Of a stretch of 64,000 bases of DNA, positions 2 through 24,168 are shown piece by piece. Positions within the stretch are counted from its first letter, which is position 1; each line of letters starts with the position of its first letter. The translations under genes were made by a program, and so were the position numbers. The notes under the pieces are model-generated. The model was not told the DNA's origin. It made no database searches and worked only from the letters and a program-made list of their open reading frames with translations. The DNA comes from a virus, in the IMG/VR virus record IMGVR_UViG_3300047551_002099, positions 1-64,000 of that record. One strand, 5' to 3'.

Positions 2-3000
2 GTTGTCTTTCCTTTCTATCTTTGTCGGCAGTGTCTGGGTTAGGTAGTTAAAGGAGTTAGCATACTGCTCTTGCTTGTCTGCTAAGAACTGGGCCTTGGC
101 GGCCACCGCGGCTTCTTTCTCAACTATCTTCTGCTGAGTTTCTTGAATCTTCTGCTGCTTGACGGCGATTTTAGCCTCTTCCCGGGCGATAGCTTCTTCT
201 TTTCTGGCAATACGCTCGTTAAGTTTAGTTAGATAGTGACCGTGTTTTACTTCCTCCGCGGCTATCTGCTGCTGTTTCTTATCAATCTTGCCTTCTAAGA
301 TTTGAATGTAGCCAGTCTTATTCTGTATCCGGGACTCTAGGCTTCCTAATGTCCGCGAAGACACCCCGAAGCTTAGATAAGCATTCTGCCGGGTGACATT
401 CTCTGTATTCTGAACAAAAGCAATACTCCGGTCTAGATTAGCAAGGCGGCGGCGGGCTAACTTAGTGGACTCCATTAACTCAATTTGAGCACTAGACCTA
501 ATTGTGTTAGCAGCTTCTGCTTGCTGCAGTTGGGCTAAACGAAGTTGCGCTGGGAGCTGCTCTTGTTGCTCGATGAACCGTTTCAGGTTAGCTAAGACTC
601 CCGCTACCGCGCTGGGGTCTTCTTGGGAACCTAGATTATCTAACTGGGTTAGAAGTTGTTGTGCCTGTTGAGCTTCTGTGCTGGTAGCCGGTAAGTTTGT
701 TAAGAAGTCCCGCAGTCGCTCCATTTCTGTGCGGACAGTCAACTCGAACATCACCCGACCGCGGAAGCCCCCAGCGGTAAGTAGTTTGAAAGACTCAACT
801 TGGTACTTCATTTCTTTATCTGCTGCTGCACCCAGTCGTTTGATTCCGTCGCCGGAATCAACACCAGCCGCCCGCAGAATTCGACTACCCAAGCCGACTT
901 CTTCCATACCCACTAAGAAGCTGTTGACCGCTATATAAGACGTCCCACTCATCCCCAAGCGGTTAGCGGTGGCCTGACGGATGCTGTTCTTGTTATGAAC
1001 TAAGTCAATCGCTGTTTCCTTACTTTGGTGCATTAACACCTGTAGCTCTTCGATGTCCGCCAGCTGTTCATTAGTTAGGTCGGTAGTCTGGCCCTTCAGC
1101 GCGTTGAACTGAATCCGGTCGATAACTGACTGAGTCTTCTGTAGTTTGGCAATCAGTCTGTACTGAGCTTCCAGCGCCGGATGACTTTCAGAGTTAAACA
1201 GTAGACTCATCTTCTGAAGGATATCCAACCCAAGAATAACCCCGGTTTGAACTGAACGCTCCGCACCGGTGCGGACTGTCGTTTTACCAGTGAATCTTGT
1301 GCCACCGTCCGGGTCTGCTTCCTGCTTATATCGGTCTAGAACAACAATGCTAGGTAAGCTAATAAAGCGGCTGGTTTCTACCGAGCCCATTAATGACTGA
1401 GCCCGTGTTAACTTAGCCTGGAGTTCAAGGCGGATAGTTGGGTCAGTTTCAGTTTCAAGTAACTGTCTGAAGTACTGCTGTTGTTGCTTAGCAGAGGCAT
1501 GCAGTGTTTCCATACCTTCCAGGTACTCAGCGCCCGTGTTATTTCGGAAGGTATTGACTATCCGCTGATGGATAGTATCCCGTTGGGTTTGAGCGTAGTT
1601 ACCAGCTCCAATTTGTCGGGCTTCATTGAAACTAGCTCCACTCTGCATTGCCAGAATAATCTGTTTCTGTAAGCCAGCCTCTTCCCGACTGAGTTGGCTT
1701 AATGTAATAGCCTGTTGACTTCCTAAATCGACTCGGGTTCTGCTTCGGTAGATTGAGTCTAGAAACTCAGTCATATCAAAGTCTTCGCCTAAGGACACTC
1801 GTTGTTGGTAGTCGTCTTGAGCTAACTGACGAACGGCTTCTACAATAGTTTCGGTGTTAGTCCCAGCAGACCGTAGTAAAGCGCCGCGCTCGATTTCCGC
1901 TAAGACTAAGTCAACCCGTTGGTTAATGTTCTGTTCATAGTCAAGATTGTTGCCTAAGTTATGCCGAGTTAAGTCGGCGTACCTAATCATATTTTGTAGA
2001 CTTTCAAAGTGCCTGCCATCATTAATGTATTGACTACCTAAACCAACGTAGTCATGCACCGCTGCTACACCCACCGGTCGAACTTCTACAGCACCTAAGC
2101 GGTCGATGTGACCAGGCACTTCATGTCTACCAAAGCTGGTGTAATTAGTTAGGAAAGTCGTGGCAAAGTCGTAGGCTGATGCTTGATAGATTTGCGGGCC
2201 AGCTGCTAAAGCACTTTTAGCAGCTCTTGTATTGCGTAAAAGCCCCATGGTTGTATACTCTAGTTGCAGAGTTCTCAAGTCATTTCTTAACTCTAAGTCG
2301 TTTACAGTTCTGGTACTATCGGGGTCAATAGCCCGCTCCTGCTCTAAAAGTTCCTTCTGCATTACAAACTGTAAAGCAGCGTTATCCCCTAAGTTCTGCA
2401 TTTGCAAGTTGTATTTAGACGCTACTTTACGCTGGCTCGGCACGGAGTTTTCGTAAATAATGGCTAAACTAACCAAGGCTTGTTGGATTGTTCCAACGTC
2501 CTGAGCGTCTTTGGGGTTGTAAGTGTAAGTAGATAACTGCTTAGCTGTTAACCCCTGGGCGTAGTGGCCCTCCATAGCTGTAATATTCTTCATCCCGGTG
2601 GGAACGGTTAGTTTACCTGGCGTATACTCCCCGGGTAACTCAATCATCCGTTGAGTTTGGATGTAGGCTCGGATGGCGCTGAAGACTGCTTCGACTTCTC
2701 TGAGTTTGCGTTCTTCTTCAGGGGTTACACTTTCGCCCCGCTTCACTCTTTCTAAGATGTGCTTAATTTCTTTATCGTCGGGCAGGCTATAACCGAAACG
2801 TCTGGCGATTTCTTCAATCCCGGTGCCTAACTTCTTACCTAGCTCCCCAAAACGTCCGTACATTTCCAGAGCAGTGTAAGTTGCTAAGTTGTGGTCTTTA
2901 CCATATTTGAGCAGTCGACTTTCGCCGTCTTCTCCGTAGGCGGTTAACAACTGCTGGATTTGGGTGTTGTCTAAGTTAAGGTTATTAAGTTTTTCAATCA

Positions 3001-6000
3001 GACTGTCTGTTTGAAGGTCTTGACCCGTCCGCTGCGCTGCCAAGTTTGTTCTGAGTGCTGGGGCTAAACGGGATTTGAAAAGATTAAATTGGGGGTTAGT
3101 GATAAACTGCCGGAAGTCTTGTTCCGCGCTAGGCCCCCGGAGCTTTAAATCTATATATTGGTTGATTTGCTCTGTGTTCCAGCCGGCGTTCTGTGCAGCC
3201 TGCACCAAGACATCTTTGTAGGCCTTCGTTAACGGATGCGCTTCCACTTGTAGCATCTGGGTTAGGGTATCAACGTTGAAGTTTGATATTCCAAACTGAG
3301 ATTCTAAGTTACGTAATTCTCCTTTCAACCGGTTCTTAACATTGTCATCTTGAGAGGTTAGCGTTTCAGTAAGCTTGTTAACGTAGGCTTCAACTTGGTT
3401 ATCACCAATGGCATTAAGACGGTCAGTGTATCCTGTTAGGTCAGTACCCGCAGTCTGCCCTAGTTGTCTAACTAGTTCTGTAGCTTCATGGCGGCGCAGC
3501 GTGGTTCTTAGTTGGTCAATACTATCTTCCTGTTGTGGCATTAAGCTTGACAGGGTATGCAGGTAGGCATTGTACTCGCTGGTGGTATCACTAGGGTCGT
3601 AGCTACCTGTGAAGATACTTTGGTTAGAAAGACTAACTTCTGCCAAGCCCGCGCTTCTGAGCCGGTCAGTAACATTAACATCTCGATAGACATCTTGGGA
3701 TGCTTTTAGTAAGAAGGCCAGCAAACCTACTGGGCGGCTTCCAAAGTCGTCTAGGTGACTGTAGATATTGACGCTTTCATCTTCGCCGGCTTCGTTTGTA
3801 TAGGCATACTCGTCTGTTTTAAAGGAGTTTTGGAACGCCCCTCGGAATAAACTAACCGCACCGGACTGTAACCTTGACCGGGCTTCTTGAGCGCTAGCGT
3901 CGTCACCTAGAGCTATTCTTACTTGAAGGGCCAAGGCTTCTTGAAGACTTCGTCCGGCTAGCAAACCAGGGTCTACCAGTGCCGCCAGGCTACCAAAGTA
4001 ATCCAGACTAGAGTCTAAGTCAGCGGCAATCCCGGTTAAGGGCTGGCCCTGTTGATTAGGATTAGCTGCGTTTCTAACACGCAAGGCCTCTGCATATTGA
4101 GCCCGGCTGCCGCCGTCGCTGTACTGACTGCCCCGCAAGCTTTGCTCTAACGCTCCACGAAGGCCACTAATATCACTCAAGTCTTTGCGGCTTAATAAGA
4201 GCATAGCCAACGCTTCGGCAACAGCTCGGCCCCCGCTGACAGTTCCTTCTGCTTCTGGTCGGTTAACCAATTGGTAAATACCACTTTGCTCTTTCTCTTC
4301 AAGTAGTCCTAACCCCATCTCAAAGTTAAAGCCCTTAATTTGGCTGCTGGATAGCATAGCAAAAACATCTTGGGCAGCAACCCGGCGGGGCAGCAAACTC
4401 TTAGTTCCTTCTGTAAAGCCATCTATGGCTTTCCAGAACTCTGCTTCTGCAGACCGCATTGGCCCTTTTGCTGTTTGTAAGCCACCCCGTATACCTTCTT
4501 TAAAGTCTTTTAGGGTCTGTAGGTCTAAATCTAAAATGACGGTATTGCCGGTGTTCACCGTTAAATGCGCTTCACTTAGAACGCTGATAGCCGGGCCTAG
4601 TTCTCTGGCGGATACCGCCGGGATACGGAACATCATCGGTTTAACCCGACCGTCACCAGTTGTAGTGCTGTAGTTAAACAGGTCGTTAATTGTGAAGGTT
4701 AACCCTTGACCACCTTCTGAACCAATTAACTCCCCGATCAGAGACATAGACTCGATATAGTTAAGTTTGCCTAGCTGACTGTTACCCAACTCGTCTCTGG
4801 AGCCAGGACTGTAGACACCTTTTTTGTAATAGAAGTTGACGTTGTCTAAACCCCGTCCGTACTCTATTTTGATGTTCCTGAACTCTTCTTTCAGTTCTCT
4901 AAGGGAGTCCATTACCAATCGTTTTGCTGAGACGGCATCTAAGCCAGTATCTTGCTGAACCGATTCGATATAGTTGGTTAGGTTTAGGTCGCCCGCGGGG
5001 ATGTTGCTTAAATTAGGAATGTTTTGGTACTGAGTAAAATAGGTTGTTTGAACTTGCAGGTTCAGTCTTCTTTTGAGTTGGTTTACGACACTGCTTTCTG
5101 TGACTAGTAGGTCTTTGGCTAAGAAAATAGTGCCGGGTTTGAGCTTTTCATTAATAACCTTGTTAAGCGCACTGGGGCTTGCGATAAAGCTATCCAAAGT
5201 GCTGGTGGCTTGAACAACGTGGGGTTGGACATAGCTCAAGGCATACTGGTCTTCCTTATTGTCTCTGAAGTTAGCGTTTAGCATCCCATAGTCACTTAAC
5301 TGGGATGCCCCGGCTGCTATTACTAATCGCCGTGGTGCTACGCCGCCCAAGTAACCTTTAGTAATCTGCTTTTGGTCTACTGTCCATTCTTTAGCGATAG
5401 TTCTAAGTAGACGAGTGTCTATGTTGGCATCACTTAACATCTCCGCAGGGGTAAGGAGAGTATCCGGGTTGTTCTGCTGGTAGCGACTGACGTATTCTTC
5501 CCGCAGGGCTTTGTACTGCTGTGCCGTTAGCGTCGAAAAGATGTTGCCCCCTAAAGAGTCAACCGAGCGGCTGGGGTCGTAGTCAAGGTCTGCCCCGAAG
5601 CTCATGGCATATTTAACAAACTCCGACGAAGCATTAAAGATAGGCCGGGTAGAAGTCAGGTTCTTCATCCGTTGACTAATCTGCTCAGACTTAGCAAAGG
5701 GGAAGAAGTAGATTAGCTCATCATCGGAGTCATAGGCTTCGCCTAACCCGGCGGCCTTCTCGGCTTTAGCTCTATACCGGCTGAAGCTAGCTTCAGCTAG
5801 CTGTTTCGCTGAGGTAAGGGCTTGTCTGTTGGTATACCCAGCTTGCTTTAAAGACTTAAATACCTGTAGAGTATATTCTCTTCGTTTAGTAATTCCTAGA
5901 CCTGGCATACTCTGCATTAAGCCTTCTAGTTCATGCACGACCGGTGCGCCACCCTCTAGTTTTAACAATCCACCGTAACGGGTATAAGAGTCTTGGAACT

Positions 6001-9000
6001 TTAACCGACCGGAAGACGCAACCGCCCGCAGGTACTGACCTGAGTACGCCCCTAGGGATTCCCCGTGCATTAAAGCATACGGACTCATAATAAAACCAGT
6101 ATCGTCCTGGTCTCGGAGGATGCTGTAAGCGTTATTGATGTATTGGTCTTCGCCGTAGCCAGGTAATCGGAAGAATCCCTGCCCATGGGAAAAGCCAGTT
6201 TCGTGGGGTTGGGAGAAGATGTCTATTTGGTTACTGAAGGACTCTTTCTTACCCTTTTCAATCTCTGACTTGTAAATAGAGGCAAGCGTTGGATTCATTT
6301 CAATGGCCTGCATAATCAGGTCATTGTAGAGCCCAGTAAAGTTATTCTGTCCTGTCACCCAGTTACCTAAGTTAAGGCTGGTGTTTACTTGGGTAACCAA
6401 CTGACTGGTAAAGCGGTCAACAATAGCGCCAATGTTCTCAGGGGTTGCAGTGTTTTGTGTAGCAGCGTTTGTGATACCTGTAATTAACTTATTGACGGCT
6501 TCGTTCATTTCGGTCAGCCGTTGGTGTGCCATCCCTGTTGTGTTAGCAATATTAGGGCGATAACCGGCGTAATCCCCGATAGGAGTCGCTAGCAGAGAAG
6601 TTAACTGGGTCTGAAGCTGTTGTCTAATTTTCCCTCTGTTTCTTGCGTTCGCGGTGCTTAATTGGTTAGCTAATAACCCCGCGACTTCGTACAAGTCATT
6701 GGTACCACCTTCTGCAACGGGCGTACCCCCAGCACTCAATATCTGGTTAATGGACGTGCCAACGTACTGTCTTAGTGTGCCGGCAAAAACGTCTTTCTCC
6801 ATCATGCCGTAGGTGGCGTACATACCACGGACTTGATACTCGTAACGCATAGCGTGGTAAGTCGTGTTAATTAACCCACCTAAGACATCAAAGGCATTGG
6901 CTTGATAAGTTTCACCATGCTTCAGGGCAATTTCATTTGTTGCGCCTGTTTCTTCGTCATAGACTTTATAGACCCGATTTTCGCCAGTGGCGTTTTTATA
7001 GACCATCCCAGCTATTAACCGCTGGGACTTATTAAGGTAAACAACAGGTTGCATACCGTCAGGGCCTTTAGCGTTGACTGTCCGCTCCGCGCCAAAGGTA
7101 ACATCAAAAGAATACCCTGCTTCATCGCCTAAGGGATTAGCGATTTGAATCTTAGCGCCAACAACCCTAGCGCCGCCCTGCCCAACTAGATACCGTCGGC
7201 TGAAAATAAATTTCTTACCTTTAGCTGCTTTAGAGTCCCAACTAGTTGCTTCAACCCCTCCCATAGACCTTAAGAAGTCAAAACCGTCCCGTGCGATTTC
7301 TTCTCTGCCCCGCTGCTCGATCAGCAACCCTTGGTAGTCTGACCGTTCTTTAAAGAACCGGCTGTAACCATAAAAGTAAGACTGCTGAATATCCCGTTCT
7401 GTCTCAGCATCTAATATATTTAAAGTGTTGTAAGATGACTCACTTTCAAAGATAGCCATCGTTTCAATATTCTGCCTGTTCGCTCCGGCGGAGATGTTAG
7501 ACGAACCAATACCATAAGCTTTGAGTTGGTTCCTCGAGTCTAAAATAGCAAACGATTTACTATGTAAAAACTGGGACGGCATGATAGAAAAAGCGTTGCT
7601 TTCTAGCAGGGAAGTTACCAAATCATACCGTTCCCGCTGCGCGTGGGTTAAACCTGTGGTATCTTTTATTGCTCCCATCCGGTAGTAGTTGTCAAGTAAC
7701 CTAAATAAGCCTTGACTTTCAACATGACTAGTACTAGTTAACGCGATGCTTAGTTGACCACTGCTGGCTAGGTTTTTCAATGCTTCAAAACCTATTTGAC
7801 CAACACCAAAGGGTGACCCACCCAGTTGGTGGGACTTCTTCCTGGGGTCAAGGGCTGATTCTAAATACTGTATTGAAAGGATAACCTTCTGGTCGCCGCT
7901 GCTAGCCGCGCTTTCTAATTTACTGGCTATCTTAGTGTGAATCTCTTCGTTCACAAATAAGACTCTAGGCCCATTTAGCACTCCCAGTTTCTGTTCGTAG
8001 CGTGTTCTGAACTCGGTTCTAGTAGCTTCTGGATTTTGCCGGCTGCTGGTTTGAAGCTCCAGTAAACTATCTACTGCCGCTTTTGTTTGTTGGGCTAATA
8101 TGTCAAAAGCGTTTCTATCCCTAGCAGTATCCCGGTTTAGCAGGAGCATCTCTTCAATCGTTGTCGAGCGGTCTAGTGTAGAAGTCCAGTTTTGGGTACC
8201 GATAAAGATTTTACTGATTGCTCCTACAGCGTCGTCTTTTTCATTATCTTGTTCATAGAAGTAACCTAACTTCGCGTGAATCTGGCCCCGCTGTTGAAAG
8301 ACAGGCACAACTCTAGCGGGCCCTTGGTTATAAAGTTCAGCCGTTCGAGCGCTTAAGTCATTACCTGCTAAAATCCCGGTGGCGGTAGTTGGCATAGACG
8401 AAGAATCTAAAATGTCGGTGTAGCCCTGGGTACCGACTTGGGTTGGCCCGGTTCGGTTTAAGACTCCAGCTAACGCGGTTTTAGACTGTAGTTGGTAAAC
8501 AAAGCCTTTGAAGCCTAAGCCACTGTTTTCTTGGCTGGTCAACATTGAGTAGACGTCTAACCCAGTAGGCCGCATAATAAACCCACTGGAGCGGGTTACC
8601 CCCTGCTGGGATGTGCCTGTTAACCGAGCCGGTTCGGCATAGTTGTCTGTTTGTCTTACCAAACTTTGGTTAATCTCTGGCATAGCCGCAACTAGCTGCC
8701 TAGCCCCGTACTCTACTGCGCCTCTTAGACCTTGTCTTAAGTACTCTGGTTCATACGAAGGCGGACTGTTTAAACGACTGTTGGTGTCGACCGCCAGTGC
8801 GTCTAGGTTAGCCGGACGGGGGCTATGCAGCCGTTCATAGTCTTTGGTGAACCGACGGGCGTAGTTCTCAATCCCCTTGAAAGGGTCAGTTGCATTAGTA
8901 TGAAAGTCTGTCCAAAACGATCGGGCAGCATCATGCTCAGCACTGCTCCCACCGCTAACTGCTGCGCTGGTTCTAATCCTATGGCTGACCTCTGGATATA

Positions 9001-9217
9001 ATTCAGCATAGGTTTCAAGTTCAATATCTTCTAAAAGGCTTTTAGGGACGGTCTCCCCAGTTGCGTCCTCGATAGCGTCGTAAAGTTCATCGATAAAGCC
9101 GTTGTAGTCAAAAATCCGTAAGGCGCGCTGTGTGATAAGCTGCCTAATATCCGCGCTGTACTCACCTTTTATTAGATATTCGTATAAACTCTCTCTGTTA
9201 GTAACGTTAAGCGGCAT
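2..9217 (-). CDS. Giant virion protein (>3070 aa, runs off left edge): N-terminal tandem PLD/HKD domain plus putative fused beta/beta'-like two-barrel RNA polymerase; in tape-measure gene position
   Basis: Hand translation: ATG at 9217 (MPLNVTNRESLYEYL...), upstream in-frame stop at 9241-9239, frame still open at position 2; absence from the ORF track is consistent with no stop in the window. HKD-type motifs IHAKLGYFYE..IFIGTQNWT (about 8280-8180) and LHSKSFAILD..GIGSSNIS..NIE (about 7565-7460). RNAP-like motifs at about 6100, 5330, 4500 and 1006-875. The ORF is well supported; the function is inferred. Confidence 0.85.
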   Translation of the reverse strand, partial: MPLNVTNRESLYEYLIKGEYSADIRQLITQRALRIFDYNGFIDELYDAIEDATGETVPKSLLEDIELETYAELYPEVSHRIRTSAAVSGGSSAEHDAARSFWTDFHTNATDPFKGIENYARRFTKDYERLHSPRPANLDALAVDTNSRLNSPPSYEPEYLRQGLRGAVEYGARQLVAAMPEINQSLVRQTDNYAEPARLTGTSQQGVTRSSGFIMRPTGLDVYSMLTSQENSGLGFKGFVYQLQSKTALAGVLNRTGPTQVGTQGYTDILDSSSMPTTATGILAGNDLSARTAELYNQGPARVVPVFQQRGQIHAKLGYFYEQDNEKDDAVGAISKIFIGTQNWTSTLDRSTTIEEMLLLNRDTARDRNAFDILAQQTKAAVDSLLELQTSSRQNPEATRTEFRTRYEQKLGVLNGPRVLFVNEEIHTKIASKLESAASSGDQKVILSIQYLESALDPRKKSHQLGGSPFGVGQIGFEALKNLASSGQLSIALTSTSHVESQGLFRLLDNYYRMGAIKDTTGLTHAQRERYDLVTSLLESNAFSIMPSQFLHSKSFAILDSRNQLKAYGIGSSNISAGANRQNIETMAIFESESSYNTLNILDAETERDIQQSYFYGYSRFFKERSDYQGLLIEQRGREEIARDGFDFLRSMGGVEATSWDSKAAKGKKFIFSRRYLVGQGGARVVGAKIQIANPLGDEAGYSFDVTFGAERTVNAKGPDGMQPVVYLNKSQRLIAGMVYKNATGENRVYKVYDEETGATNEIALKHGETYQANAFDVLGGLINTTYHAMRYEYQVRGMYATYGMMEKDVFAGTLRQYVGTSINQILSAGGTPVAEGGTNDLYEVAGLLANQLSTANARNRGKIRQQLQTQLTSLLATPIGDYAGYRPNIANTTGMAHQRLTEMNEAVNKLITGITNAATQNTATPENIGAIVDRFTSQLVTQVNTSLNLGNWVTGQNNFTGLYNDLIMQAIEMNPTLASIYKSEIEKGKKESFSNQIDIFSQPHETGFSHGQGFFRLPGYGEDQYINNAYSILRDQDDTGFIMSPYALMHGESLGAYSGQYLRAVASSGRLKFQDSYTRYGGLLKLEGGAPVVHELEGLMQSMPGLGITKRREYTLQVFKSLKQAGYTNRQALTSAKQLAEASFSRYRAKAEKAAGLGEAYDSDDELIYFFPFAKSEQISQRMKNLTSTRPIFNASSEFVKYAMSFGADLDYDPSRSVDSLGGNIFSTLTAQQYKALREEYVSRYQQNNPDTLLTPAEMLSDANIDTRLLRTIAKEWTVDQKQITKGYLGGVAPRRLVIAAGASQLSDYGMLNANFRDNKEDQYALSYVQPHVVQATSTLDSFIASPSALNKVINEKLKPGTIFLAKDLLVTESSVVNQLKRRLNLQVQTTYFTQYQNIPNLSNIPAGDLNLTNYIESVQQDTGLDAVSAKRLVMDSLRELKEEFRNIKIEYGRGLDNVNFYYKKGVYSPGSRDELGNSQLGKLNYIESMSLIGELIGSEGGQGLTFTINDLFNYSTTTGDGRVKPMMFRIPAVSARELGPAISVLSEAHLTVNTGNTVILDLDLQTLKDFKEGIRGGLQTAKGPMRSAEAEFWKAIDGFTEGTKSLLPRRVAAQDVFAMLSSSQIKGFNFEMGLGLLEEKEQSGIYQLVNRPEAEGTVSGGRAVAEALAMLLLSRKDLSDISGLRGALEQSLRGSQYSDGGSRAQYAEALRVRNAANPNQQGQPLTGIAADLDSSLDYFGSLAALVDPGLLAGRSLQEALALQVRIALGDDASAQEARSRLQSGAVSLFRGAFQNSFKTDEYAYTNEAGEDESVNIYSHLDDFGSRPVGLLAFLLKASQDVYRDVNVTDRLRSAGLAEVSLSNQSIFTGSYDPSDTTSEYNAYLHTLSSLMPQQEDSIDQLRTTLRRHEATELVRQLGQTAGTDLTGYTDRLNAIGDNQVEAYVNKLTETLTSQDDNVKNRLKGELRNLESQFGISNFNVDTLTQMLQVEAHPLTKAYKDVLVQAAQNAGWNTEQINQYIDLKLRGPSAEQDFRQFITNPQFNLFKSRLAPALRTNLAAQRTGQDLQTDSLIEKLNNLNLDNTQIQQLLTAYGEDGESRLLKYGKDHNLATYTALEMYGRFGELGKKLGTGIEEIARRFGYSLPDDKEIKHILERVKRGESVTPEEERKLREVEAVFSAIRAYIQTQRMIELPGEYTPGKLTVPTGMKNITAMEGHYAQGLTAKQLSTYTYNPKDAQDVGTIQQALVSLAIIYENSVPSQRKVASKYNLQMQNLGDNAALQFVMQKELLEQERAIDPDSTRTVNDLELRNDLRTLQLEYTTMGLLRNTRAAKSALAAGPQIYQASAYDFATTFLTNYTSFGRHEVPGHIDRLGAVEVRPVGVAAVHDYVGLGSQYINDGRHFESLQNMIRYADLTRHNLGNNLDYEQNINQRVDLVLAEIERGALLRSAGTNTETIVEAVRQLAQDDYQQRVSLGEDFDMTEFLDSIYRSRTRVDLGSQQAITLSQLSREEAGLQKQIILAMQSGASFNEARQIGAGNYAQTQRDTIHQRIVNTFRNNTGAEYLEGMETLHASAKQQQQYFRQLLETETDPTIRLELQAKLTRAQSLMGSVETSRFISLPSIVVLDRYKQEADPDGGTRFTGKTTVRTGAERSVQTGVILGLDILQKMSLLFNSESHPALEAQYRLIAKLQKTQSVIDRIQFNALKGQTTDLTNEQLADIEELQVLMHQSKETAIDLVHNKNSIRQATANRLGMSGTSYIAVNSFLVGMEEVGLGSRILRAAGVDSGDGIKRLGAAADKEMKYQVESFKLLTAGGFRGRVMFELTVRTEMERLRDFLTNLPATSTEAQQAQQLLTQLDNLGSQEDPSAVAGVLANLKRFIEQQEQLPAQLRLAQLQQAEAANTIRSSAQIELMESTKLARRRLANLDRSIAFVQNTENVTRQNAYLSFGVSSRTLGSLESRIQNKTGYIQILEGKIDKKQQQIAAEEVKHGHYLTKLNERIARKEEAIAREEAKIAVKQQKIQETQQKIVEKEAAVAAKAQFLADKQEQYANSFNYLTQTLPTKIERKDN

Positions 9218-9257: not shown

Positions 9258-9283
9258 AAACTAAAGCCGGCGCTGGGCCGGCT
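9258..9283 (-). terminator. Possible intrinsic terminator/attenuator hairpin between chaperone genes and giant gene
   Basis: Minus strand AGCCGGC-CCAGC-GCCGGCT (7-bp GC stem) followed by TTAGTTT, just downstream of the stop at 9287; the U-tract is interrupted. Confidence 0.45.
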
Positions 9284-9286
9284 GGG

Positions 9287-9853
9287 TTACCTAAAGGTTT
9301 TTTCAATAGCGCTGTTCTTAGCGATTCCGTGGAGGGCTTCAAATACCGGTTTAGATTGTTCTTTTATCTGCATGCGCTGTTCGTTGCGCTGCTTTTCAAT
9401 TTCACGGTTTATATCTTCGACTTCTAGTGCAATAGCTTTTTTAATGACCTCAGGCCAGCCATACTTTTTATAGAAGTCGTCGCCGCCCCATCCAATCCAA
9501 TCCTCTAACGGAACTTTAGCATGTTGGTTAACCGCGAACCAGCTACTGATTTGGTACTTCTGACGAAGGATTTTAGCTGCATCTTCAAAAATGATTGACT
9601 TACTGGCAATCAAGTTTTTGAACTGTTCTTCGGTTAGGTCTCCCCAGCGATAGATAGGCCACCAGCTGGGGTAACAAGAAGATTGTCCAGCCAATTCGAC
9701 TAAAGGGTCATAAACAGTCGTAACCGGAATTGGCTTAACAAACTCTAGGAAGCGGGAGATTCCATAGCTTCCGTCGGCTGGGCTGTAGTACGCCGCTGCC
9801 GAGGTTTGGTTTCGGTATCTTGTCGACCAAAGTTTTCCCGATAACGCTTTCCC
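9287..9853 (-). CDS. Frameshifted C-terminal segment of tail assembly chaperone (gpT-like part of a gpGT fusion)
   Basis: Frame is -1 relative to the 10533-9745 gene, open from 9898 to the stop at 9287, has no ATG start (the track uses TTG 9694), and overlaps an in-phase G GGA AAG slippery heptamer at 9853-9847. Confidence 0.75.
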   Translation of the reverse strand, partial: GKALSGKLWSTRYRNQTSAAAYYSPADGSYGISRFLEFVKPIPVTTVYDPLVELAGQSSCYPSWWPIYRWGDLTEEQFKNLIASKSIIFEDAAKILRQKYQISSWFAVNQHAKVPLEDWIGWGGDDFYKKYGWPEVIKKAIALEVEDINREIEKQRNEQRMQIKEQSKPVFEALHGIAKNSAIEKTFR

Positions 9854-10533
9854 ACTTCCTTCGCTTTTTCGGCACCGTTGTTGTCTAACGTAAATTGGTT
9901 AATGAAAACCAAGTTAGCAAACTGAACGTCGCAGATTTCCCATTCGTCTAGCAGGCTGACCACATCGTTCGGGGTTTCAACTGGTTCGCTGTTAATGGTC
10001 TGTAAACACATTGCGAATAGGAACTCTTCCAACGAGCAGCCTTGTTGCTGAACACCTTGGTAACGACGGTCAGCAGCCATTTGAGTTCCGGTGCTAGGTA
10101 CGTTGTAAGTGATGTTCAGGTCACCCGAGGGCATTTGGTCTTTATCCAATCCATAAACCAGGGCTGGCGCCAGCATATATTCGTTAGCCAGGTCTTGACC
10201 TACTTTAGCTTGGTCAACTCCTAACCAAAAGATTTCAATCATAATCATGACCAAAGCCTGACGGTCAGCGATCGGAAAAGGCTTGATTCGGTCAATAATG
10301 TCCTTAGGCATTGTCTTACTCATCAGTGAGTTGCCGTTGACATCAGTTACGTCTACTAGCTGATTAGCCAACACCAACTCTTCTACAGAGTAGCCAGGGC
10401 CCTTGCGGTCGTCAGTCGGATACAGTTTTTTAGCGCGTCGATAATCACCATAACGTGGACATTTGATTGTCACGTTGTACTTCCCTGACGGTAGGTCTTC
10501 ATGGGAGATAGTGATCGTTTCAGGTAAAGACAT
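9745..10533 (-). CDS. Tail assembly chaperone (gpG / Mu gp41 / P2 gpE-like), internally duplicated domain, 262 aa
   Basis: Two similar halves (LPSGKYNVTIKCPRYGD..YSVEELVLA..FPIADRQAL and MPSGDLNITYNVPSTGT..CSLEEFLFA..WEICDVQFA). Slippery site near 3' end; lies upstream of a giant gene. Start moved to ATG 10533 because the track start overlaps the portal gene. Confidence 0.7.
   Translation of the reverse strand: MSLPETITISHEDLPSGKYNVTIKCPRYGDYRRAKKLYPTDDRKGPGYSVEELVLANQLVDVTDVNGNSLMSKTMPKDIIDRIKPFPIADRQALVMIMIEIFWLGVDQAKVGQDLANEYMLAPALVYGLDKDQMPSGDLNITYNVPSTGTQMAADRRYQGVQQQGCSLEEFLFAMCLQTINSEPVETPNDVVSLLDEWEICDVQFANLVFINQFTLDNNGAEKAKEVGKRYRENFGRQDTETKPRQRRTTAQPTEAMESPAS
9847..9853 (-). other. 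Programmed -1 ribosomal frameshift slippery site G GGA AAG
   Basis: GTG GGA AAG in the chaperone frame; same heptamer and phase as the lambda G/T site; the -1 frame stays open for 188 codons. Confidence 0.75.
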
Positions 10534-10630
10534 AGGATGGAAAAACTCTTGTAAGTTACTACTTATCAGGATATACCAAAAATTTGAACTACAGTAGGAA
10601 ATAGATAAACAGTAAGGCCCTATTAATAAG

Positions 10631-12106
10631 ATGGCGACTTCCGGCGACATTAACTACCCAGACAAGCGTTCCGTCAGAAAACAGACTCAACAGCAAGGTC
10701 GCTACAATCTTTACAACGCGCTGCGGCGGCCATTAATGTCAAAGCTGCGGCTTTACGAACGGATGGCCCGCCAGGATTTGACTATCCGGTCTGCTTTAAA
10801 CACCCGGGTGGATTCTATTATTGGTACTATTGGTGATGTGATTCACCCGGACAAAGAAATCCAAGAATTCCACCGGGATAACCTCAAGCGGCTAGAGGAT
10901 GGCACTGGTAAAAACTTTAAGTCTTGCTTGCGAAATATTCAGTTTACTACCGACTGGGCTGGATTTTCGGTGTCTGAAGTCTGCTATTCCTTTGACTTTG
11001 GGTCTTTACATGTCGAAGACATTCTGACGTACCACCCGTCTACCTTGGTAATCTACCCTAATAAAAAGGGCCTGTTGGTGGATAACCAGGAAACTATGGA
11101 CGGCTACCACAAATCAGGTATCTATCAGTACGCAATTAACTTCGCGCCCGCTGAGCAACATCTAGATTTGTGGAAGCACATCTACTTAGGGCGGGATTGC
11201 GACTACGGTAACTACTACGGACACTCGTTAGTGGCCCCGGCTTATAAATGGTTCCGACTAAAAGAAGTGCTAATTGAGATGATGATTAGCGCTATGAATA
11301 AGCTAGGCACCAGGCTACTGTGGGTGCGGTCGCATAACACTCCAACAGAAGAGTTGGTGCTTAACCCAGCTACCGGCGAAGAACGTCCGCTCACAACGCT
11401 TGAGTTAATCCGCAACCAGATAGAAATGAACGAAGGGGCTATTGACACCTTGGTTCTACCTCAAGTATCCCCCGACTACAAACCCGAAATTGGTTCGGTG
11501 CAGATGTCAGATAACTTTGGGGATACGTTTCTTAACACCCTCGCCTACGTTGACCAAGAGTCCGTCCGTCACATCATTCCTTACTTCTTGTTGATGGACA
11601 CGGATTCTAACGAATCAGCCCGTGAGCGCCGGATGGAAATCTACTTTAATGATGTCTACAACCAACGGGAAGCTCTAATTAACGTTGCTGTTCAGAAAAT
11701 TCTAATGCCGTTGCAGACCTGGAACTTTAACCGCGCGGCGGCCAAGATTCCTCCCACCTTTGCTCGTATCTTTTCTGACCGACCGGAAGATCGTGTAGCA
11801 ACGATGCAGATGGTTACAGGTCTTACTGAAACAGGCTACTTGAATCCGACTAACCCGATGGATTGGGGAATGGTTCGGGAGATGGTTCGCTTGGCAGGTC
11901 GGGAAATGACTGAAGCTGACCTGAAGTTTATTAACGAAGTGGTCATTGAACCCCTTCAAAAACCAGAGCCAGCTGCGGGTGCAGCTACAAAAAAGCCAAC
12001 AGCCGGGCGGCCTAAAGGAGTTTCCAAACCTTTAAGCACTCGTTCCCCGGCTAAGCCCGCCAGCAGCGGCTCCACTACTAAGAAGAACCTTAAGCAAGGA
12101 GGTTAA
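10631..12106 (+). CDS. Portal protein (Mu gp29/DUF935-like)
   Basis: 491 aa; motifs LYERM..D..IRSAL..R, WAGFSVSEV.Y, GNYYGHSLV..AYKWF..K typical of this portal family; first gene of the head cluster. Confidence 0.85.
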   Translation: MATSGDINYPDKRSVRKQTQQQGRYNLYNALRRPLMSKLRLYERMARQDLTIRSALNTRVDSIIGTIGDVIHPDKEIQEFHRDNLKRLEDGTGKNFKSCLRNIQFTTDWAGFSVSEVCYSFDFGSLHVEDILTYHPSTLVIYPNKKGLLVDNQETMDGYHKSGIYQYAINFAPAEQHLDLWKHIYLGRDCDYGNYYGHSLVAPAYKWFRLKEVLIEMMISAMNKLGTRLLWVRSHNTPTEELVLNPATGEERPLTTLELIRNQIEMNEGAIDTLVLPQVSPDYKPEIGSVQMSDNFGDTFLNTLAYVDQESVRHIIPYFLLMDTDSNESARERRMEIYFNDVYNQREALINVAVQKILMPLQTWNFNRAAAKIPPTFARIFSDRPEDRVATMQMVTGLTETGYLNPTNPMDWGMVREMVRLAGREMTEADLKFINEVVIEPLQKPEPAAGAATKKPTAGRPKGVSKPLSTRSPAKPASSGSTTKKNLKQGG

Positions 12107-13614: not shown

Positions 13615-14670
13615 ATGCCACTATCTATTGAACTTAAAAATGATAAGGAACTACTGGCAACAGACACTGTTGCTGGTAAAGAGTACATCAAAGCACCAAT
13701 TGCCCGTTTAGGTAAATGGAAACATGAAGCTTACGGTCGGGTTGAATTCTCCCAAAAAGACTTTGATGATATTACCACTAACTGGAAAAACAACGCTGCT
13801 GGATTTGAGCCTCCACTCTACCTAGGTCATCCCCGGAATGACAAGGCGTGGAGCGGCGCGCCTGCCGTTGGGTTTCTAGAAAACGTAGTTCAGGAAGGAG
13901 ATACTTTGTTTGGGCTTTACGAGCCGGTAGACAAAGAAGCCTTTGAGGAAGTTAAGAAGGGCCAGTACCGTTATGCTAGCTCCGAAGTTTATCGGAATGC
14001 TAAAGATAAAGAGACGGGTGCTGTGATTGGTACGCTGTTGACAGCCCATGCGTTAACAAACGAACCCTACTTGACTAAACTGCCGCGGGTGGAAGTAACC
14101 GAGAAGCTTGAATTTAGCAATCCTATTAACACTACTCGTTTTGTATTTTCTCAAGAATCAGCTACCTGTACAAAAGAGGTAGTAACTATAAATGCTATGA
14201 CACAAACCACCGAAGTTACGTCAGAAAAAGACACTGCTGCGCACGAACAGTTCGTGCAGCTGCAACACGAAAACGAAACCCTGCGACTTGAGCTTTCCGA
14301 TAAGAACAAGCAACTCGCAGATCTACAGGACGCTGTCGCTGCCATCAAACAAGAACTTTCCATTCATACCGAACGCGCCAAGAAGCAGGAACTTTCTGAC
14401 AAACTGGCCCGGTTGAATAAGCTGAATGTTTCTGCCGCGACCAAAGAGAAGTATTCCCAACTCTTTGCGGAAGGCACCCTTGATGCCACTGGTGAAGAAA
14501 ATATCTTTTCTTTGTTGGAAGAGTTATCTGCTGGTAACGTCCAAAAGTTCACCGATGTTCAAGGTGTTCAAGAAAAGTCTGAAGAGACCGCTGTTGAAAA
14601 CCCTTACTCAGAAACTATCCTTAAGCTCGCTGAGCGCGCCAAGGAGCTAGGTCGTGAATTTGTAATCTAG
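13615..14670 (+). CDS. Prohead protease / scaffold (Mu gpI-like)
   Basis: GKWKH, PPLYLGHP, APAVGF, GQYRYASSE, AHALTNEPY motifs of Mu-like protease; coiled-coil C-terminal scaffold; directly upstream of capsid gene. Confidence 0.85.
   Translation: MPLSIELKNDKELLATDTVAGKEYIKAPIARLGKWKHEAYGRVEFSQKDFDDITTNWKNNAAGFEPPLYLGHPRNDKAWSGAPAVGFLENVVQEGDTLFGLYEPVDKEAFEEVKKGQYRYASSEVYRNAKDKETGAVIGTLLTAHALTNEPYLTKLPRVEVTEKLEFSNPINTTRFVFSQESATCTKEVVTINAMTQTTEVTSEKDTAAHEQFVQLQHENETLRLELSDKNKQLADLQDAVAAIKQELSIHTERAKKQELSDKLARLNKLNVSAATKEKYSQLFAEGTLDATGEENIFSLLEELSAGNVQKFTDVQGVQEKSEETAVENPYSETILKLAERAKELGREFVI
14241..14257. promoter_or_regulatory. Palindrome GCACGAAC-A-GTTCGTGC (copy 1 of 3)
   Basis: Perfect inverted repeat with 1-nt centre; same 15-bp core at 25004 and 45286. 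Confidence 0.6.
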
Positions 14671-14710: not shown

Positions 14711-16003
14711 ATGCCTCAAGAGTTTCACCCCGAGATTACAGATTACCAATATATTGGCGACTTGCCTGCCCTTGGTAGTCTACAGCTAACTAAGCTAGCC
14801 CGCGGATTTGAAGTGGCGGAGATTGGTCAGTTGGATGACCTGTTCCCCAGCCAAATGATTAACGAACGGACTATCGTCATCGAACAAATCATCGAAGGTC
14901 TGGGTATTATGCCCTTGGCTCGCTTTGGTGTTCCTGGTGGCGGCTTTATTGAGCCCGACCGGATTCGTTCGATGCGCGTCACCCCGGCGGTCGTTCGTGA
15001 AGAAGATTTCATCGAGCAAGCGCTCATCAACCAACTCCGCCAGCCTGGTACCTTCAACCAGCAATGGAGCCCGACTCAGATCATTCAACAACGGGTACAA
15101 AAACTTGTTAACCGTCACCGCCGTACCGTTGACCTCTTCCGTGCCAAAACCCTACTGGGCGGCATCAGCTACACCGACCCTCGGACAGGTGTCAGCATTG
15201 ATGTCAGCACCAACATTCCTGAGCATAACCTGTTCTCTTATAAAGGCTGGAATGCTGCTGTCGCTGCTGGTACCGTCGTTAACGGCTTTACTGCTGACTC
15301 AGCGCTGACCAATGATAAAGGACGACCTGAAGCCTTCTTCTTCCGGTCTACTGACGAGCGCTTCGGTGTACCTTGGACTGACCCCAAAGCTGACCTGGCC
15401 TATACGATTCGTATGATTAAGCAGTATCTGCTCAATACGAACAAAAACCAGTTCACTGAAATCATCATGCACTCTGACTTGATGACTGTTCTGCAAGAGA
15501 ACAACCTAGTCAAGTCTTTCATGGGTCTACCCTACGCCCTTAACACCACTGGCACCCAAGCGGCCTACACCCCCGCCAACAATATGCCTCCCTCCAGTTT
15601 CCTGGTACTCGGCCCCGGCGGTGACTTAGCGTCCTTAGGTGGTCTACGGATTCGTGTGGTTAACGGGCTGTACCGTAACCCCGTCACTAACCAGATTGAA
15701 AACTGGTGGCCTGCCCATAAGGTAGCTATCGTAGCTCCGACTCACATGAATGACTCCAGCGCTCGGTTGGGTCTAACTCAACACTGCGTCGGTGAATCTG
15801 AAGACGGACAACCCGGTGTTTACATGCGCGTCAGCCCCATGAGCGCACCCCCGGCACCTCCCGGACGGGTAATGCAAATGGGTGATGCCTTCTTACCCTT
15901 TGCTATCTATCCCCACTGGATTTGTCTGCTGGATGTTTGTGAGCCTGATGAACTCAAAACCAAGATCATCCTACAAGCTGACCTGAACTATGGAACGTTC
16001 TAG
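14711..16003 (+). CDS. Major capsid protein (HK97 fold, capsid-E-like family)
   Basis: 430 aa after the protease, AAGGA ribosome-binding site; LDDLFP, LLGGISYTD..IDV, W.DP.AD and terminal LP.AIYP..I.LLDV patterns of the major capsid protein E family. Confidence 0.85.
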   Translation: MPQEFHPEITDYQYIGDLPALGSLQLTKLARGFEVAEIGQLDDLFPSQMINERTIVIEQIIEGLGIMPLARFGVPGGGFIEPDRIRSMRVTPAVVREEDFIEQALINQLRQPGTFNQQWSPTQIIQQRVQKLVNRHRRTVDLFRAKTLLGGISYTDPRTGVSIDVSTNIPEHNLFSYKGWNAAVAAGTVVNGFTADSALTNDKGRPEAFFFRSTDERFGVPWTDPKADLAYTIRMIKQYLLNTNKNQFTEIIMHSDLMTVLQENNLVKSFMGLPYALNTTGTQAAYTPANNMPPSSFLVLGPGGDLASLGGLRIRVVNGLYRNPVTNQIENWWPAHKVAIVAPTHMNDSSARLGLTQHCVGESEDGQPGVYMRVSPMSAPPAPPGRVMQMGDAFLPFAIYPHWICLLDVCEPDELKTKIILQADLNYGTF

Positions 16004-23500: not shown

Positions 23501-24168
23501 CTGTCCTCCGTGACCGGATTAACAGCGACAAGATTGTTCAAATTGCTGGTTCTATCCAAGGGGTTAACCTGAACGGTCAGATTTACCAAACTCAAGGCGC
23601 TACTGGCATCTACGTTGGTCTCCGCTGCGCCCGTCCGCCCCATATCTCTACCGCTTCTACCTACAGTGGTGGTTACGCCGAAAACGTAAGTTTCAGCAAC
23701 ATCAAATCTTCTCCTGATGTGTTAGACGCCTACACCCGCGGCGGTACGGAAGTGCTCTTCTACGATTCCGGTCTGAAGCTCTTTAAGTTCTTGAACGGGA
23801 TTACCACCAGCCGCGACCCCAACAAGAAGTATGTATGTGTGCTTGAAGTTTGGGACCAAATGAAGCACGACCTTTACAACTACTTGCAGTACGTCCGGTC
23901 TGAGCCCAACACTCGCGACCTTCAAAAACGGGTTGCCTCTTCTGTAGATGCTTATCTACAACAGAAGTACCGCGACGACTGGTTCATGCGGATTGCTCCT
24001 ACGATCTGTGGGCCTGCTAATAACACCGAAGCCGATATGATTCGTGGCAAGCTGTTTATCACGGTACGGGCTACGCCTACGTTCCCTGCTGACTTCATTG
24101 TCGTTAACGACATTATGGATCTCAGCGAGACCTTCAGCTTTGAAACGCAGCCTATTAGTTCTTTCTAG
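20572..24168 (+). CDS. Contractile tail sheath protein (1198 aa, large central insertion)
   Basis: N-terminal AIIGEFDRGPV..P; ALNPGIYGNNIKVSI; LSGG; C-terminal SEPNT..L..RV..VDAYL, CGPANNT..GKLFITV..P..PADFIVV. Confidence 0.9.
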   Translation: MVDYSFPNISFNSKVIGPAPVNPGWRDKYAIIGEFDRGPVVPVQSADRSVLASLYGEDTSSGSIALQQAMRQGATNAVVARVVPNSLPSQLYFEIAGDSLFVQPSTGYESAIANTNVLDTFNYTTGFKFTLDYIGEPNFVRTAYGDISSRNRPIDHPTFNGRAQMNYMVTRVQSADAAQRVVYEDSNEVLEVTLHNSSRDDYQLVTFEEGNNVYVEQYLKPGFTLRSSTSAQQEGLVIACEPYEYSEGVKAVLVKGHYSPANAYSGAVVTTSGLYNVTVTDFKKGSNVNSPTLSILAQSVALVGGSAYEVSAAVNNGGNIDVTLATNVTGSAKEDAPVSFVPKVTTVTYDSVDKVTDITLTGVLANTDIAVGSKLTFSAKDASYTVSAISTAWSSGTVTVEVEGDVRAGVKVKDYALVTTADSNEQLDTFKVHFPSVTQYILGYSLRSFDNSALQSRSTSRSYLTIGSSATKPVRYFDGFVNYAVDACLVFQEGDGGVYHKIPYLTGLKNLQEAQLLEREYFGLELYFGRPNDRKVYLAETTIFNIPLVKSEAVIGGESGSETAYPKGTLATTILRDLEYAIYGDPAMASMVKDIKVDITLLPFKFSGEASFVGVKSNRLRWNLERYVAGPKAVYSSKSGAVLTFDAVPDIILGKEDDYSVIIDGVAYPLTAASSTTVTVDVDDLSVLDILSTGDELEFRSQVQTKDILIRRQPEVDFDTLDYGLDKFYPFINGRDTASHAYADFYALNGKSLIRVVALNPGIYGNNIKVSIVPDEVTVNSAKFYLQVEDTNPGVILGGPKTELWYLDNREIDPETGAYLSVKQSNLVRAYFLPVIEPVNVSDLINTIDESLFQGLPLRIAPPLEVQDSAYASGITRVTSQGGSFIRNVTLSGGTEFVDPAPDAAIRARRDGYLAALRSLEKEDVAWIAIAGIYYGDNDYQEVFDELKAQCERATTLNGLRRGVVSLAPNVSPRQASVLRDRINSDKIVQIAGSIQGVNLNGQIYQTQGATGIYVGLRCARPPHISTASTYSGGYAENVSFSNIKSSPDVLDAYTRGGTEVLFYDSGLKLFKFLNGITTSRDPNKKYVCVLEVWDQMKHDLYNYLQYVRSEPNTRDLQKRVASSVDAYLQQKYRDDWFMRIAPTICGPANNTEADMIRGKLFITVRATPTFPADFIVVNDIMDLSETFSFETQPISSF

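What the first reader, a model, noticed from the sequence alone, without database searches (positions are those of the whole stretch)
7440..8520. Intact tandem PLD (HKD) domain fused in front of the putative virion RNA polymerase
Seen: two HxK motifs, each followed by the GSxN-type and N/E-x-E elements (IHAKLGYFYE..FIGTQNWT..IEE; LHSKSFAILD..IGSSNIS..QNIE). Established: two HKD halves form one active site in PLD-superfamily nucleases (Nuc, BfiI), phospholipases and nicking-joining enzymes. Inference: an injected enzyme that either nicks or processes DNA/RNA for the linked polymerase or attacks membrane lipid during entry. I know of no described PLD-RNAP-tape-measure fusion.
Basis: partly seen in the sequence, partly recalled or inferred. 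Interest (0 to 1): 0.85.

Follow-up and report, generated by a model that had tools for sequence, protein, structure and literature searches.

The report
PLD enzyme domain on phage megaprotein
A giant gene of an uncultured jumbo phage (a distant relative of the Microcystis phage Ma-LMM01) starts with a real, apparently active phospholipase-D-type enzyme domain that all its giant relatives keep, but what the enzyme cuts, and whether the rest of the giant is an RNA polymerase, is still open.

Summary
The two HxK...G(S/T)xN...E motifs lie on the minus strand at 8153-8278 and 7463-7564, inside a giant ORF (2-9217, 3072 aa, cut off by the contig start). They are the best-conserved positions in 28 divergent relatives, nearly all megaproteins of 3000-5400 aa. 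An AlphaFold model built on that family alignment (pLDDT 85.7, pTM 0.85) has a two-lobed PLD fold: Z 22-24 to E. coli PssA, vaccinia F13, human PLD3/PLD4 and PPK1, and Z 14 to Nuc for one lobe.

The domain always sits at about residues 200-650. Every full-length member also carries an invariant LGD(Y/F/N)DGD motif 2000-3900 residues in, which is beyond the window's truncated copy.

Ma-LMM01 gp080 (3562 aa, annotated "hypothetical") is a distant member in the same genomic position, divergent from the portal gene.

No profile or HMM test supported the RNA polymerase reading; it rests on motifs only. The tape-measure reading is not supported by gene position. Virion packaging is an inference. The substrate is unresolved: nucleic acid is slightly favoured over phospholipid.

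Verdict: a real, probably catalytic PLD module in an undescribed phage megaprotein family. It is a new variant of a known kind, of moderate to high interest.

The parts
2..9217 (-). Giant ORF (P0001), 3072 codons in the window. Its C-terminal part (about 2000 aa, judged from relatives of 5025-5112 aa) is lost at the contig start.
8594..9217 (-). Conserved N-terminal leader (residues 1-208) ahead of the PLD domain. No family match.
7328..8593 (-). Two-lobed PLD-superfamily domain (residues about 209-630, model residues 10-431).
   Evidence: AlphaFold on alignment A1: pLDDT 85.7, pTM 0.85. Z 22-24 to PssA, F13, PLD3, PLD4 and PPK1. Foldseek E about 1e-8. Pfam PLDc_2 at 26.7 bits, E 5.6e-6.
8153..8278 (-). 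HKD motif 1: H314-x-K316 ... G340-T-Q-N343 ... E355.
   Evidence: H, K, Q, N, T, E invariant in 29 of 29 sequences
7898..8116 (-). Helical insert between the two lobes (residues about 368-440). It matches only generic helical hairpins.
7463..7564 (-). HKD motif 2: H552-x-K554 ... D560 ... G571-S-S-N574 ... N583-x-E585.
   Evidence: This is the stretch that Pfam PLDc_2 and RE_NgoFVII hit.
5660..7162 (-). Conserved post-PLD region, ending in the family signature FP(F/Y)xKxEQISQRxKN. It corresponds roughly to the stretch of the family profile that is homologous to Ma-LMM01 gp080 residues 723-1204.
   Evidence: hhalign probability 99.8%, E 1.5e-27; motif coordinates
4460..4492 (-). Invariant R...G...KGP motif (residues 1576-1586). 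It loosely resembles the beta-subunit barrel motif of cellular RNA polymerases. This is a motif-level resemblance only and was not tested by fold.
   Evidence: the resemblance is from my own knowledge

Best explanation
Shown: residues about 209-630 of the giant protein form a genuine two-lobed PLD-superfamily (HKD) phosphodiesterase domain. Each lobe keeps the full catalytic set (His, Lys, Ser/Thr, Asn and the Glu that orients the His). It is the constant N-terminal module of an undescribed family of phage megaproteins of 3000-5400 aa. That family includes gp080 of the cultured Microcystis myovirus Ma-LMM01, and its gene sits next to, and divergent from, the portal-capsid-tail module. Inferred from established PLD chemistry: one His (314 or 552) attacks a phosphodiester to form a covalent phospho-histidine intermediate, the other His protonates the leaving group, and Lys316/554 and Asn343/574 hold the phosphate. 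Inferred, and less sure: the megaprotein is made together with the structural genes and delivered with the virion, and the PLD head acts on a nucleic-acid phosphodiester (nuclease or end-processing, like PLD3/PLD4/Nuc) at or soon after genome delivery, alongside the conserved DxDGD metal-binding module further down the chain.
For: The motifs are present and conserved. The model is confident only when given the family alignment (pLDDT 32 alone, 85.7 with the alignment). Fold matches cover both lobes: Z 23.7 to PssA, 23.4 to F13, 23.2 to PLD3, 22.4 to PLD4, over about 300-330 aligned residues. Lobe 1 alone matches Nuc at Z 14.1 with rmsd 2.3 A. Pfam PLDc_2 scores 26.7 bits and the nuclease-type RE_NgoFVII PLD domain scores E 1.4e-4 on lobe 2. 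The two lobes align motif-to-motif by hhalign at E 6e-5. The family consists almost entirely of megaproteins with the domain at residues about 200-650. The gp080 N-terminus aligns HAK to HPK and GTQN to GTMN at E 3e-5, and the next region aligns at 99.8% probability. Synteny with the portal gene holds in the window, in the 216-kb relative G001 and in Ma-LMM01. gp080 is silent at 1 h and is expressed in class B5, the class of the portal-position gene gp083 (PMC5780444 supplementary file 4).
Against: Pfam PLDc_2 falls just under its curated cut-off (26.7 against 27 bits), and lobe 1 gets no Pfam hit in this protein. The canonical Asp of HxK(x)4D is missing in lobe 1 and shifted by one position in lobe 2. 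No model coordinates were available, so the convergence of the two His/Lys pairs was not measured. Fold scores do not separate nucleases (PLD3/4) from lipid enzymes (PssA, F13, PLD 7e0m); all are tied at Z 22-24. Host transcript levels barely change during Ma-LMM01 infection (PMC5780444), which argues against bulk destruction of host DNA or RNA. There is no proteomic evidence that any family member is in virions.
Confidence: 0.6

Rival explanations
1. Same domain, but directed at lipid. An ejected PLD-type phospholipase or phosphatidyltransferase locally hydrolyses or remodels host membrane phospholipid, so that the megaprotein and the DNA can cross the cytoplasmic membrane. The closest analogy is the capsid-tethered phospholipase A2 of parvoviruses.
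For: The top structural neighbours include lipid enzymes and membrane proteins: E. coli phosphatidylserine synthase Z 23.7, vaccinia envelope protein F13 Z 23.4, phospholipase D 7e0m Z 22.5. Full-length relatives end in Gly-rich hydrophobic segments that look membrane-active. The lack of host transcript change in Ma-LMM01 infection fits a non-nuclease role.
Against: Classical phospholipases D score lower (Streptomyces about 17, human PLD1/2 16-20). The only subfamily-specific Pfam hit is to a nuclease PLD domain. To my knowledge no tailed phage is known to use a virion phospholipase.
Confidence: 0.25
2. The megaprotein is not packaged. It works inside the infected cell (replication, transcription, anti-defence, or degradation of a signalling nucleotide), and the PLD head is an intracellular phosphodiesterase.
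For: gp080 is classed as a middle gene, not late, in Ma-LMM01. There is no virion proteomics for the family. Sigma-70-like promoters sit in front of all Ma-LMM01 gene classes, so no injected polymerase is needed there.
Against: The gene is always adjacent to the head and portal module. It is not expressed at 1 h, so it cannot carry out early takeover unless it is pre-made. A size of 3000-5400 aa and hydrophobic C-terminal segments recall ejection proteins such as N4 vRNAP; this is analogy only.
Confidence: 0.3
3. The PLD fold is kept as a binding or scaffold module without catalysis, as in vaccinia F13 or FAM83.
For: F13 is among the best fold matches. The canonical Asp of the HKD motif is absent in lobe 1.
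Against: Both His, both Lys, both Asn and both Glu are (near-)invariant across relatives that share only 23-60% identity with the window's domain, and they are the best-conserved columns of the domain. Inactive PLD-fold proteins typically lose these residues.
Confidence: 0.08
4. Chance motifs: there is no PLD domain.
For: No PDB sequence hit, and the Pfam score is under the cut-off for the whole protein.
Against: Fold Z is 22-24 over both lobes, with family-wide invariance of the motif residues.
Confidence: 0.01

Closest known systems
Microcystis phage Ma-LMM01 gp080 (YP_851094.1, 3562 aa; most likely the UniProt entry A0A7J4, identity not verified; PHROG 31006, unknown function)
   Same: Giant gene on the strand opposite to, and next to, the portal-capsid-sheath module. 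It has N-terminal tandem HxK motifs (H287, H566) with weak PLDc_2 and PLDc hits, and a DFDGD motif at 2537. It is homologous to the family profile (99.8% over residues 723-1204; first HKD lobe E 3e-5). The best viral fold match of the model is a Ma-LMM01 protein fragment named 'PLD phosphodiesterase domain-containing protein', most likely this protein.
   Different: It is too distant for BLAST or tblastn, about 1500 aa shorter than the close relatives, and its second HKD lobe is more degenerate. It is annotated only as hypothetical, and I found no paper that discusses it.
Compact two-HKD PLD enzymes: human PLD3/PLD4 (5' exonucleases), E. coli PssA, vaccinia F13, bacterial PLD 7e0m
   Same: Same two-lobed fold (Z 22-24, about 300-330 residues aligned, rmsd 3.4-4.1 A), with HxK and G(S/T)xN in both lobes.
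   Different: Sequence identity is only 7-14%. Those are free-standing proteins of 350-450 aa, whereas this is an internal module of a chain of about 5000 aa. It has a helical insert of about 70 residues between the lobes, Gln before the motif Asn in lobe 1, and the canonical Asp is lost or shifted.
Single-HKD nucleases Nuc, NucT, Zucchini and BfiI, and the NgoFVII/NgoAVII PLD domains
   Same: Each lobe superposes on these (Nuc Z 14.1, rmsd 2.3 A over 138 residues). Pfam RE_NgoFVII hits at E 1.4e-4.
   Different: Those enzymes work as homodimers of one HKD unit. Here two diverged units are fused in one chain.
Giant virion-delivered RNA polymerases: N4 vRNAP (about 3500 aa) and crAss-like phi14:2 gp66 (2180 aa)
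   Same: Analogy only: very large phage proteins. Full-length relatives of this protein carry an invariant Asp-rich DxDGD motif like the catalytic loop of two-barrel polymerases (the comparison is from my own knowledge).
   Different: No detectable sequence or profile similarity. Those phages are podoviruses, and to my knowledge neither polymerase carries a PLD domain. Virion location is unproven here.

Membership tests
PLD (HKD) superfamily | Two HxK...G(S/T)xN motifs per active unit | tested here: met
   H314-A-K316...G-T-Q-N343 and H552-S-K554...G-S-S-N574. Both are conserved in 26-29 of up to 29 relatives. The canonical Asp four residues after the Lys is absent in lobe 1 and one position later in lobe 2.
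PLD (HKD) superfamily | Two-lobed alpha/beta PLD fold with pseudo-twofold symmetry | tested here: met
   Model pLDDT 85.7, pTM 0.85. Z 22-24 to PssA, F13, PLD3, PLD4 and PPK1 across both lobes, and Z 14 to Nuc for one lobe. The lobes align to each other at E 6e-5.
PLD (HKD) superfamily | Pfam PLDc_2 or PLDc above the curated cut-off | tested here: inconclusive
   PLDc_2 scores 26.7 bits against a cut-off of 27 on the isolated domain, and 20.8 bits on the whole protein. 3 of 8 family members scanned hit PLDc_2.
PLD (HKD) superfamily | The two His/Lys pairs converge on one active site | not testable with these tools
   No model coordinates are given out. The only indirect support is that both HxK sit at the start of equivalent strands (model H115 before E118-123, H353 before E355-360) and that the whole model superposes on enzymes in which the pairs do converge.
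PLD (HKD) superfamily | Phosphodiesterase or phosphotransferase activity via a phospho-histidine intermediate | not testable with these tools
   Needs a biochemical assay.
Two-barrel (double-psi beta-barrel) RNA polymerases (beta/beta', QDE-1, YonO, crAss gp66) | DxDGD metal-binding loop | tested here: inconclusive
   It is invariant as LGD(Y/F/N)DGD in all 19 members of 3000 aa or more and in gp080. It is absent from the window, because the ORF is cut off before it.
Two-barrel (double-psi beta-barrel) RNA polymerases (beta/beta', QDE-1, YonO, crAss gp66) | Sequence or profile similarity to a known polymerase family | tested here: inconclusive
   No hit in Pfam on 500-aa segments, in PF00623, PF05183 and PF00940 against G000 and G001 (the PF00940 control rang in no genome, so that search says nothing), in a family-profile search of the PDB, or in hhalign against phi14:2 gp66.
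Two-barrel (double-psi beta-barrel) RNA polymerases (beta/beta', QDE-1, YonO, crAss gp66) | Two double-psi beta-barrel folds | not tested
Tail tape measure protein | Gene lies between the tail tube/chaperone genes and the baseplate hub | tested here: not met
   The gene lies upstream of and divergent from the portal gene (10631-12106). The sheath (20572-24168), tube-like gene (24238-24999) and baseplate J (35069-36145) are far downstream on the other strand.

The most novel reading that the evidence does not exclude
The megaprotein is a virion-packaged, ejected multi-enzyme pilot protein of contractile-tailed jumbo phages. Its PLD head nicks, processes or covalently captures a nucleic-acid end (or breaches the membrane), and its DxDGD module is a third, independent lineage of injected two-barrel RNA polymerase. 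That would be the first such polymerase in a myovirus and the first with a built-in PLD enzyme.
Probability: 0.2. Interest if true: 0.85.

Novelty: new variant of a known kind. Interest (0 to 1): 0.58.

Why it matters
The PLD domain is the only part of a roughly 5000-aa protein that matches anything known. It is therefore the one experimental handle on a conserved megaprotein family that takes up about 7% of these jumbo phage genomes and is present in the cultured, bloom-relevant Microcystis phage Ma-LMM01. If the protein is delivered with the virion, it would be a new kind of injected enzyme for tailed phages. If the downstream DxDGD module proves to be a polymerase, it would revise the view that Ma-LMM01-like phages depend wholly on host transcription. 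If not, this remains a clear case of a PLD phosphodiesterase recruited into a giant phage protein of unknown role.

Tried and rejected
- Single-sequence AlphaFold of the domain failed (pLDDT 32).
- phmmer and profile searches against PDB sequences gave nothing.
- PHROGs gave nothing for the giant, and NCBIfam gave nothing relevant.
- tblastn of the domain and of residues 1001-3072 against 50,697 phage records found no match.
- The viral-contig scan with the single domain found none.
- A search among shorter proteins found no stand-alone homologue, so there is no sign of a free-living version of this PLD.
- BLASTP of lobe 1 against lobe 2 was insignificant. Only the profile comparison showed the duplication.
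- Polymerase tests all gave no match: Pfam segments, the PF00623, PF05183 and PF00940 HMMs, and hhalign against phi14:2 gp66, both whole and on sub-alignments around the two candidate barrel motifs. The ESM Atlas gave no usable hit on residues 2200-3072.
- The idea that the second giant (45968 onward) also starts with a PLD domain got no support from two profile comparisons.
- Literature searches for a PLD domain on a phage virion, ejection or polymerase protein, and for gp080, found nothing.

Full report
**Where it is.** The window is bases 1-64000 of a 79,810-bp linear IMG/VR viral contig. A single minus-strand ORF runs from the ATG at 9217 to base 2 and off the contig start, 3072 codons in all (P0001). 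The finding (7440-8520) covers residues 233-593 of it. The neighbours on the plus strand are:
- a Mu-like portal (10631-12106)
- a head maturation protease (13615-14670)
- a major capsid protein (14711-16003)
- a 1198-aa tail sheath (20572-24168)
- baseplate J (35069-36145)
- a large terminase (43481-45262)
- a second giant ORF that starts at 45968 and ends at contig base 69568, 7866 aa

So this is a contractile-tailed phage.

Translating 8153-8278(-) and 7463-7564(-) returns the quoted strings. The first runs from H314-A-K316 through G-T-Q-N343 to E355. The second runs from H552-S-K554 through D560 and G-S-S-N574 to N583-I-E585.

**Relatives.**
- A word-indexed search found three relatives of 4363-5112 aa.
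- A full HMMER pass over 1.84 billion representatives found 28. Nineteen are 3000-5400 aa, four are 1700-2700 aa, and five are under 500 aa and look like N-terminal pieces. The domain always lies near the N-terminus, with the first HxK at residue 207-409 in the full-length members.
- No ordinary PLD protein was hit, and no stand-alone short homologue exists in the shorter-length search.
- Across the alignment, H314, K316, Q342, N343, T345, L348 and E355 are invariant. H552, K554, S572, N574, N583 and E585 are 89-100% conserved. These are the best-conserved columns of the domain, although the members share only 23-60% identity with the window's copy.
- The sources call the proteins "hypothetical protein" where they carry a name at all (one has an evidently spurious Lpp name), and they sit on contigs of up to 205 kb.

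**Fold.**
- Alone, the 481-residue piece (residues 200-680) did not fold (pLDDT 32). With the family alignment it gave pLDDT 85.7 and pTM 0.85.
- Foldseek against the PDB returned only PLD-superfamily proteins at E about 1e-8.
- The Foldseek-independent scan of 48,161 chains gave Z 22.6 to vaccinia F13, 22.5 to PLD 7e0m, 22.4 to human PLD4, 22.2 to the C-terminal domains of PPK1 and 22.0 to PssA. All span both lobes. Lobe 1 alone matched Nuc at Z 14.1 (rmsd 2.3 A, 138 residues). Unrelated helical matches begin at Z 6.
- The second look put PssA at 23.7, F13 at 23.4 and PLD3 at 23.2. Classical Streptomyces and human PLD1/2 scored 16-20 and Tdp1 scored 14.
- In the model the two HxK motifs sit at equivalent places, each just before the central strand of its lobe, and each G(S/T)xN follows the next strand. 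A profile of lobe 1 aligns motif-for-motif with a profile of lobe 2 (E 6e-5).
- On the isolated domain, Pfam gives PLDc_2 at 26.7 bits (cut-off 27) and the NgoFVII nuclease PLD domain at E 1.4e-4, both on lobe 2.

**A cultured relative.**
- The best viral fold match was a fragment of a Microcystis phage LMM01 protein that UniProt names "PLD phosphodiesterase domain-containing protein" (E 4.7e-12).
- The sheath's only phage relatives are the Ma-LMM01 group and one Microcoleus phage, at about 27% identity over the C-terminal 450 residues.
- In Ma-LMM01 the 3562-aa gp080, annotated hypothetical, lies exactly where our giant lies: on the opposite strand and next to the portal-capsid-sheath block.
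- gp080 has HxK motifs at residues 287 and 566, weak PLDc_2 and PLDc hits on the first, and NLGDFDGDTF at 2537.
- The family profile matches gp080 at 99.8% probability (E 1.5e-27) over residues 723-1204. The PLD profile aligns HAK with HPK and GTQN with GTMN at E 3e-5.
- gp080 is a PHROG of its own with unknown function. I found no paper that mentions it.
- In the Ma-LMM01 infection transcriptome, gp080 has no reads at 1 h, rises at 3-6 h and falls in class B5 with a "middle" promoter; the portal-position gene gp083 is in the same class (PMC5780444, supplementary file 4).

**A closer uncultured relative.** G001 (216,563 bp, 96% complete) has the same layout. Its portal is 88% identical and lies 1.4 kb from a 5112-aa giant. 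It also has a 6952-aa counterpart of the second giant. The window's phage is therefore probably about 200 kb as well, and the contig's 64% completeness estimate is likely too high.

**Polymerase and tape-measure claims.**
- Every full-length member carries LGD(Y/F/N)DGD(S/T/A)(F/Y/H)(Q/A/R) at residue 2060-3960. In the window's protein this lies beyond the contig start.
- From my own knowledge, the motif resembles the catalytic loop of two-barrel RNA polymerases, and an invariant R...G...KGP (window 4460-4492) loosely resembles the partner barrel.
- No test gave support. Pfam on overlapping 500-aa segments, including the DxDGD region of G001, found nothing. The RNA_pol_Rpb1_2, RdRP and T7-type HMMs against both phage records found nothing (the T7-type control rang nowhere, so that search says nothing). 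A family profile against PDB sequences found nothing. hhalign against phi14:2 gp66, whole or around the motifs, found nothing.
[quoted passage not shown] This lessens the need for an injected polymerase.
- The polymerase reading therefore stays a motif-level hypothesis, at roughly even odds.
- The tape-measure reading fails on gene position. Only the Gly-rich hydrophobic C-terminal segments of the relatives recall ejection proteins.

**Mechanism.** The shown facts are a PLD fold and both catalytic sets under strong constraint, in a module kept at the head of every family member. From established PLD chemistry this predicts a two-step reaction through a phospho-histidine intermediate. The substrate is not resolved, because nucleases (PLD3/4) and lipid enzymes (PssA, F13, 7e0m) tie in Z. 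I favour nucleic acid slightly. The only subfamily-specific sequence hit is to a nuclease, and, to my knowledge, phage PLD-family proteins are mostly Nuc-like. On the other hand, the near-unchanged host transcriptome in Ma-LMM01 infection argues against bulk host degradation and leaves a lipid or signalling-nucleotide target open. Virion delivery is inferred from gene position, the timing of expression and the protein's size. It was not tested.

**Novelty.** The fold and its chemistry are known. The family, its architecture (leader, tandem PLD, thousands of unassigned residues, DxDGD, hydrophobic tail) and its place in a myovirus are undescribed in the papers I could search. An automatic database label on the Ma-LMM01 protein already points to the PLD domain.

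Noticed in passing
window 45968-64000, continuing to contig base 69568 (L002:1-9568): A second giant ORF of 7866 aa follows the terminase gene.
   Followed up: partly
G001 (IMGVR_UViG_3300035670_000008), L011:233-15571(-) and G001:C1:178379 onward: A 216.5-kb, 96%-complete relative has both giants (5112 and 6952 aa), about 36 kb or 17% of the genome in two genes. By comparison the window's contig is probably well under half a genome, not the 64% that was estimated.
   Followed up: partly
window 20572-24168 (+): The tail sheath is 1198 aa. Only its last 450 or so residues match the Ma-LMM01-group sheath (774 aa) and Pfam Phage_sheath_1C, so the N-terminal 700 or so residues are an unexplained extension.
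   Followed up: no
window 9265-9283 (-) and 9287-10650 (-): Two small minus-strand ORFs (135 and 301 aa) lie between the portal and the giant, with counterparts in G001. A GC-rich hairpin without a clean T tract sits between them and the giant's start. The 301-aa ORF overlaps the divergent portal start by 20 nt, so its real start may be further in.
   Followed up: partly
relatives P0002, P0003, P0004: last 400 or so residues: Full-length family members end in conserved Gly/Ala-rich hydrophobic segments and an acidic tail. These look membrane-active. The window's copy lacks this part because of the contig end.
   Followed up: no
L010 (Cellulophaga phage phi14:2 gp66): The crAss-like virion polymerase sequence contains no literal D-x-D-G-D string, so a DxDGD motif search alone would not link it to this family.
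   Followed up: no
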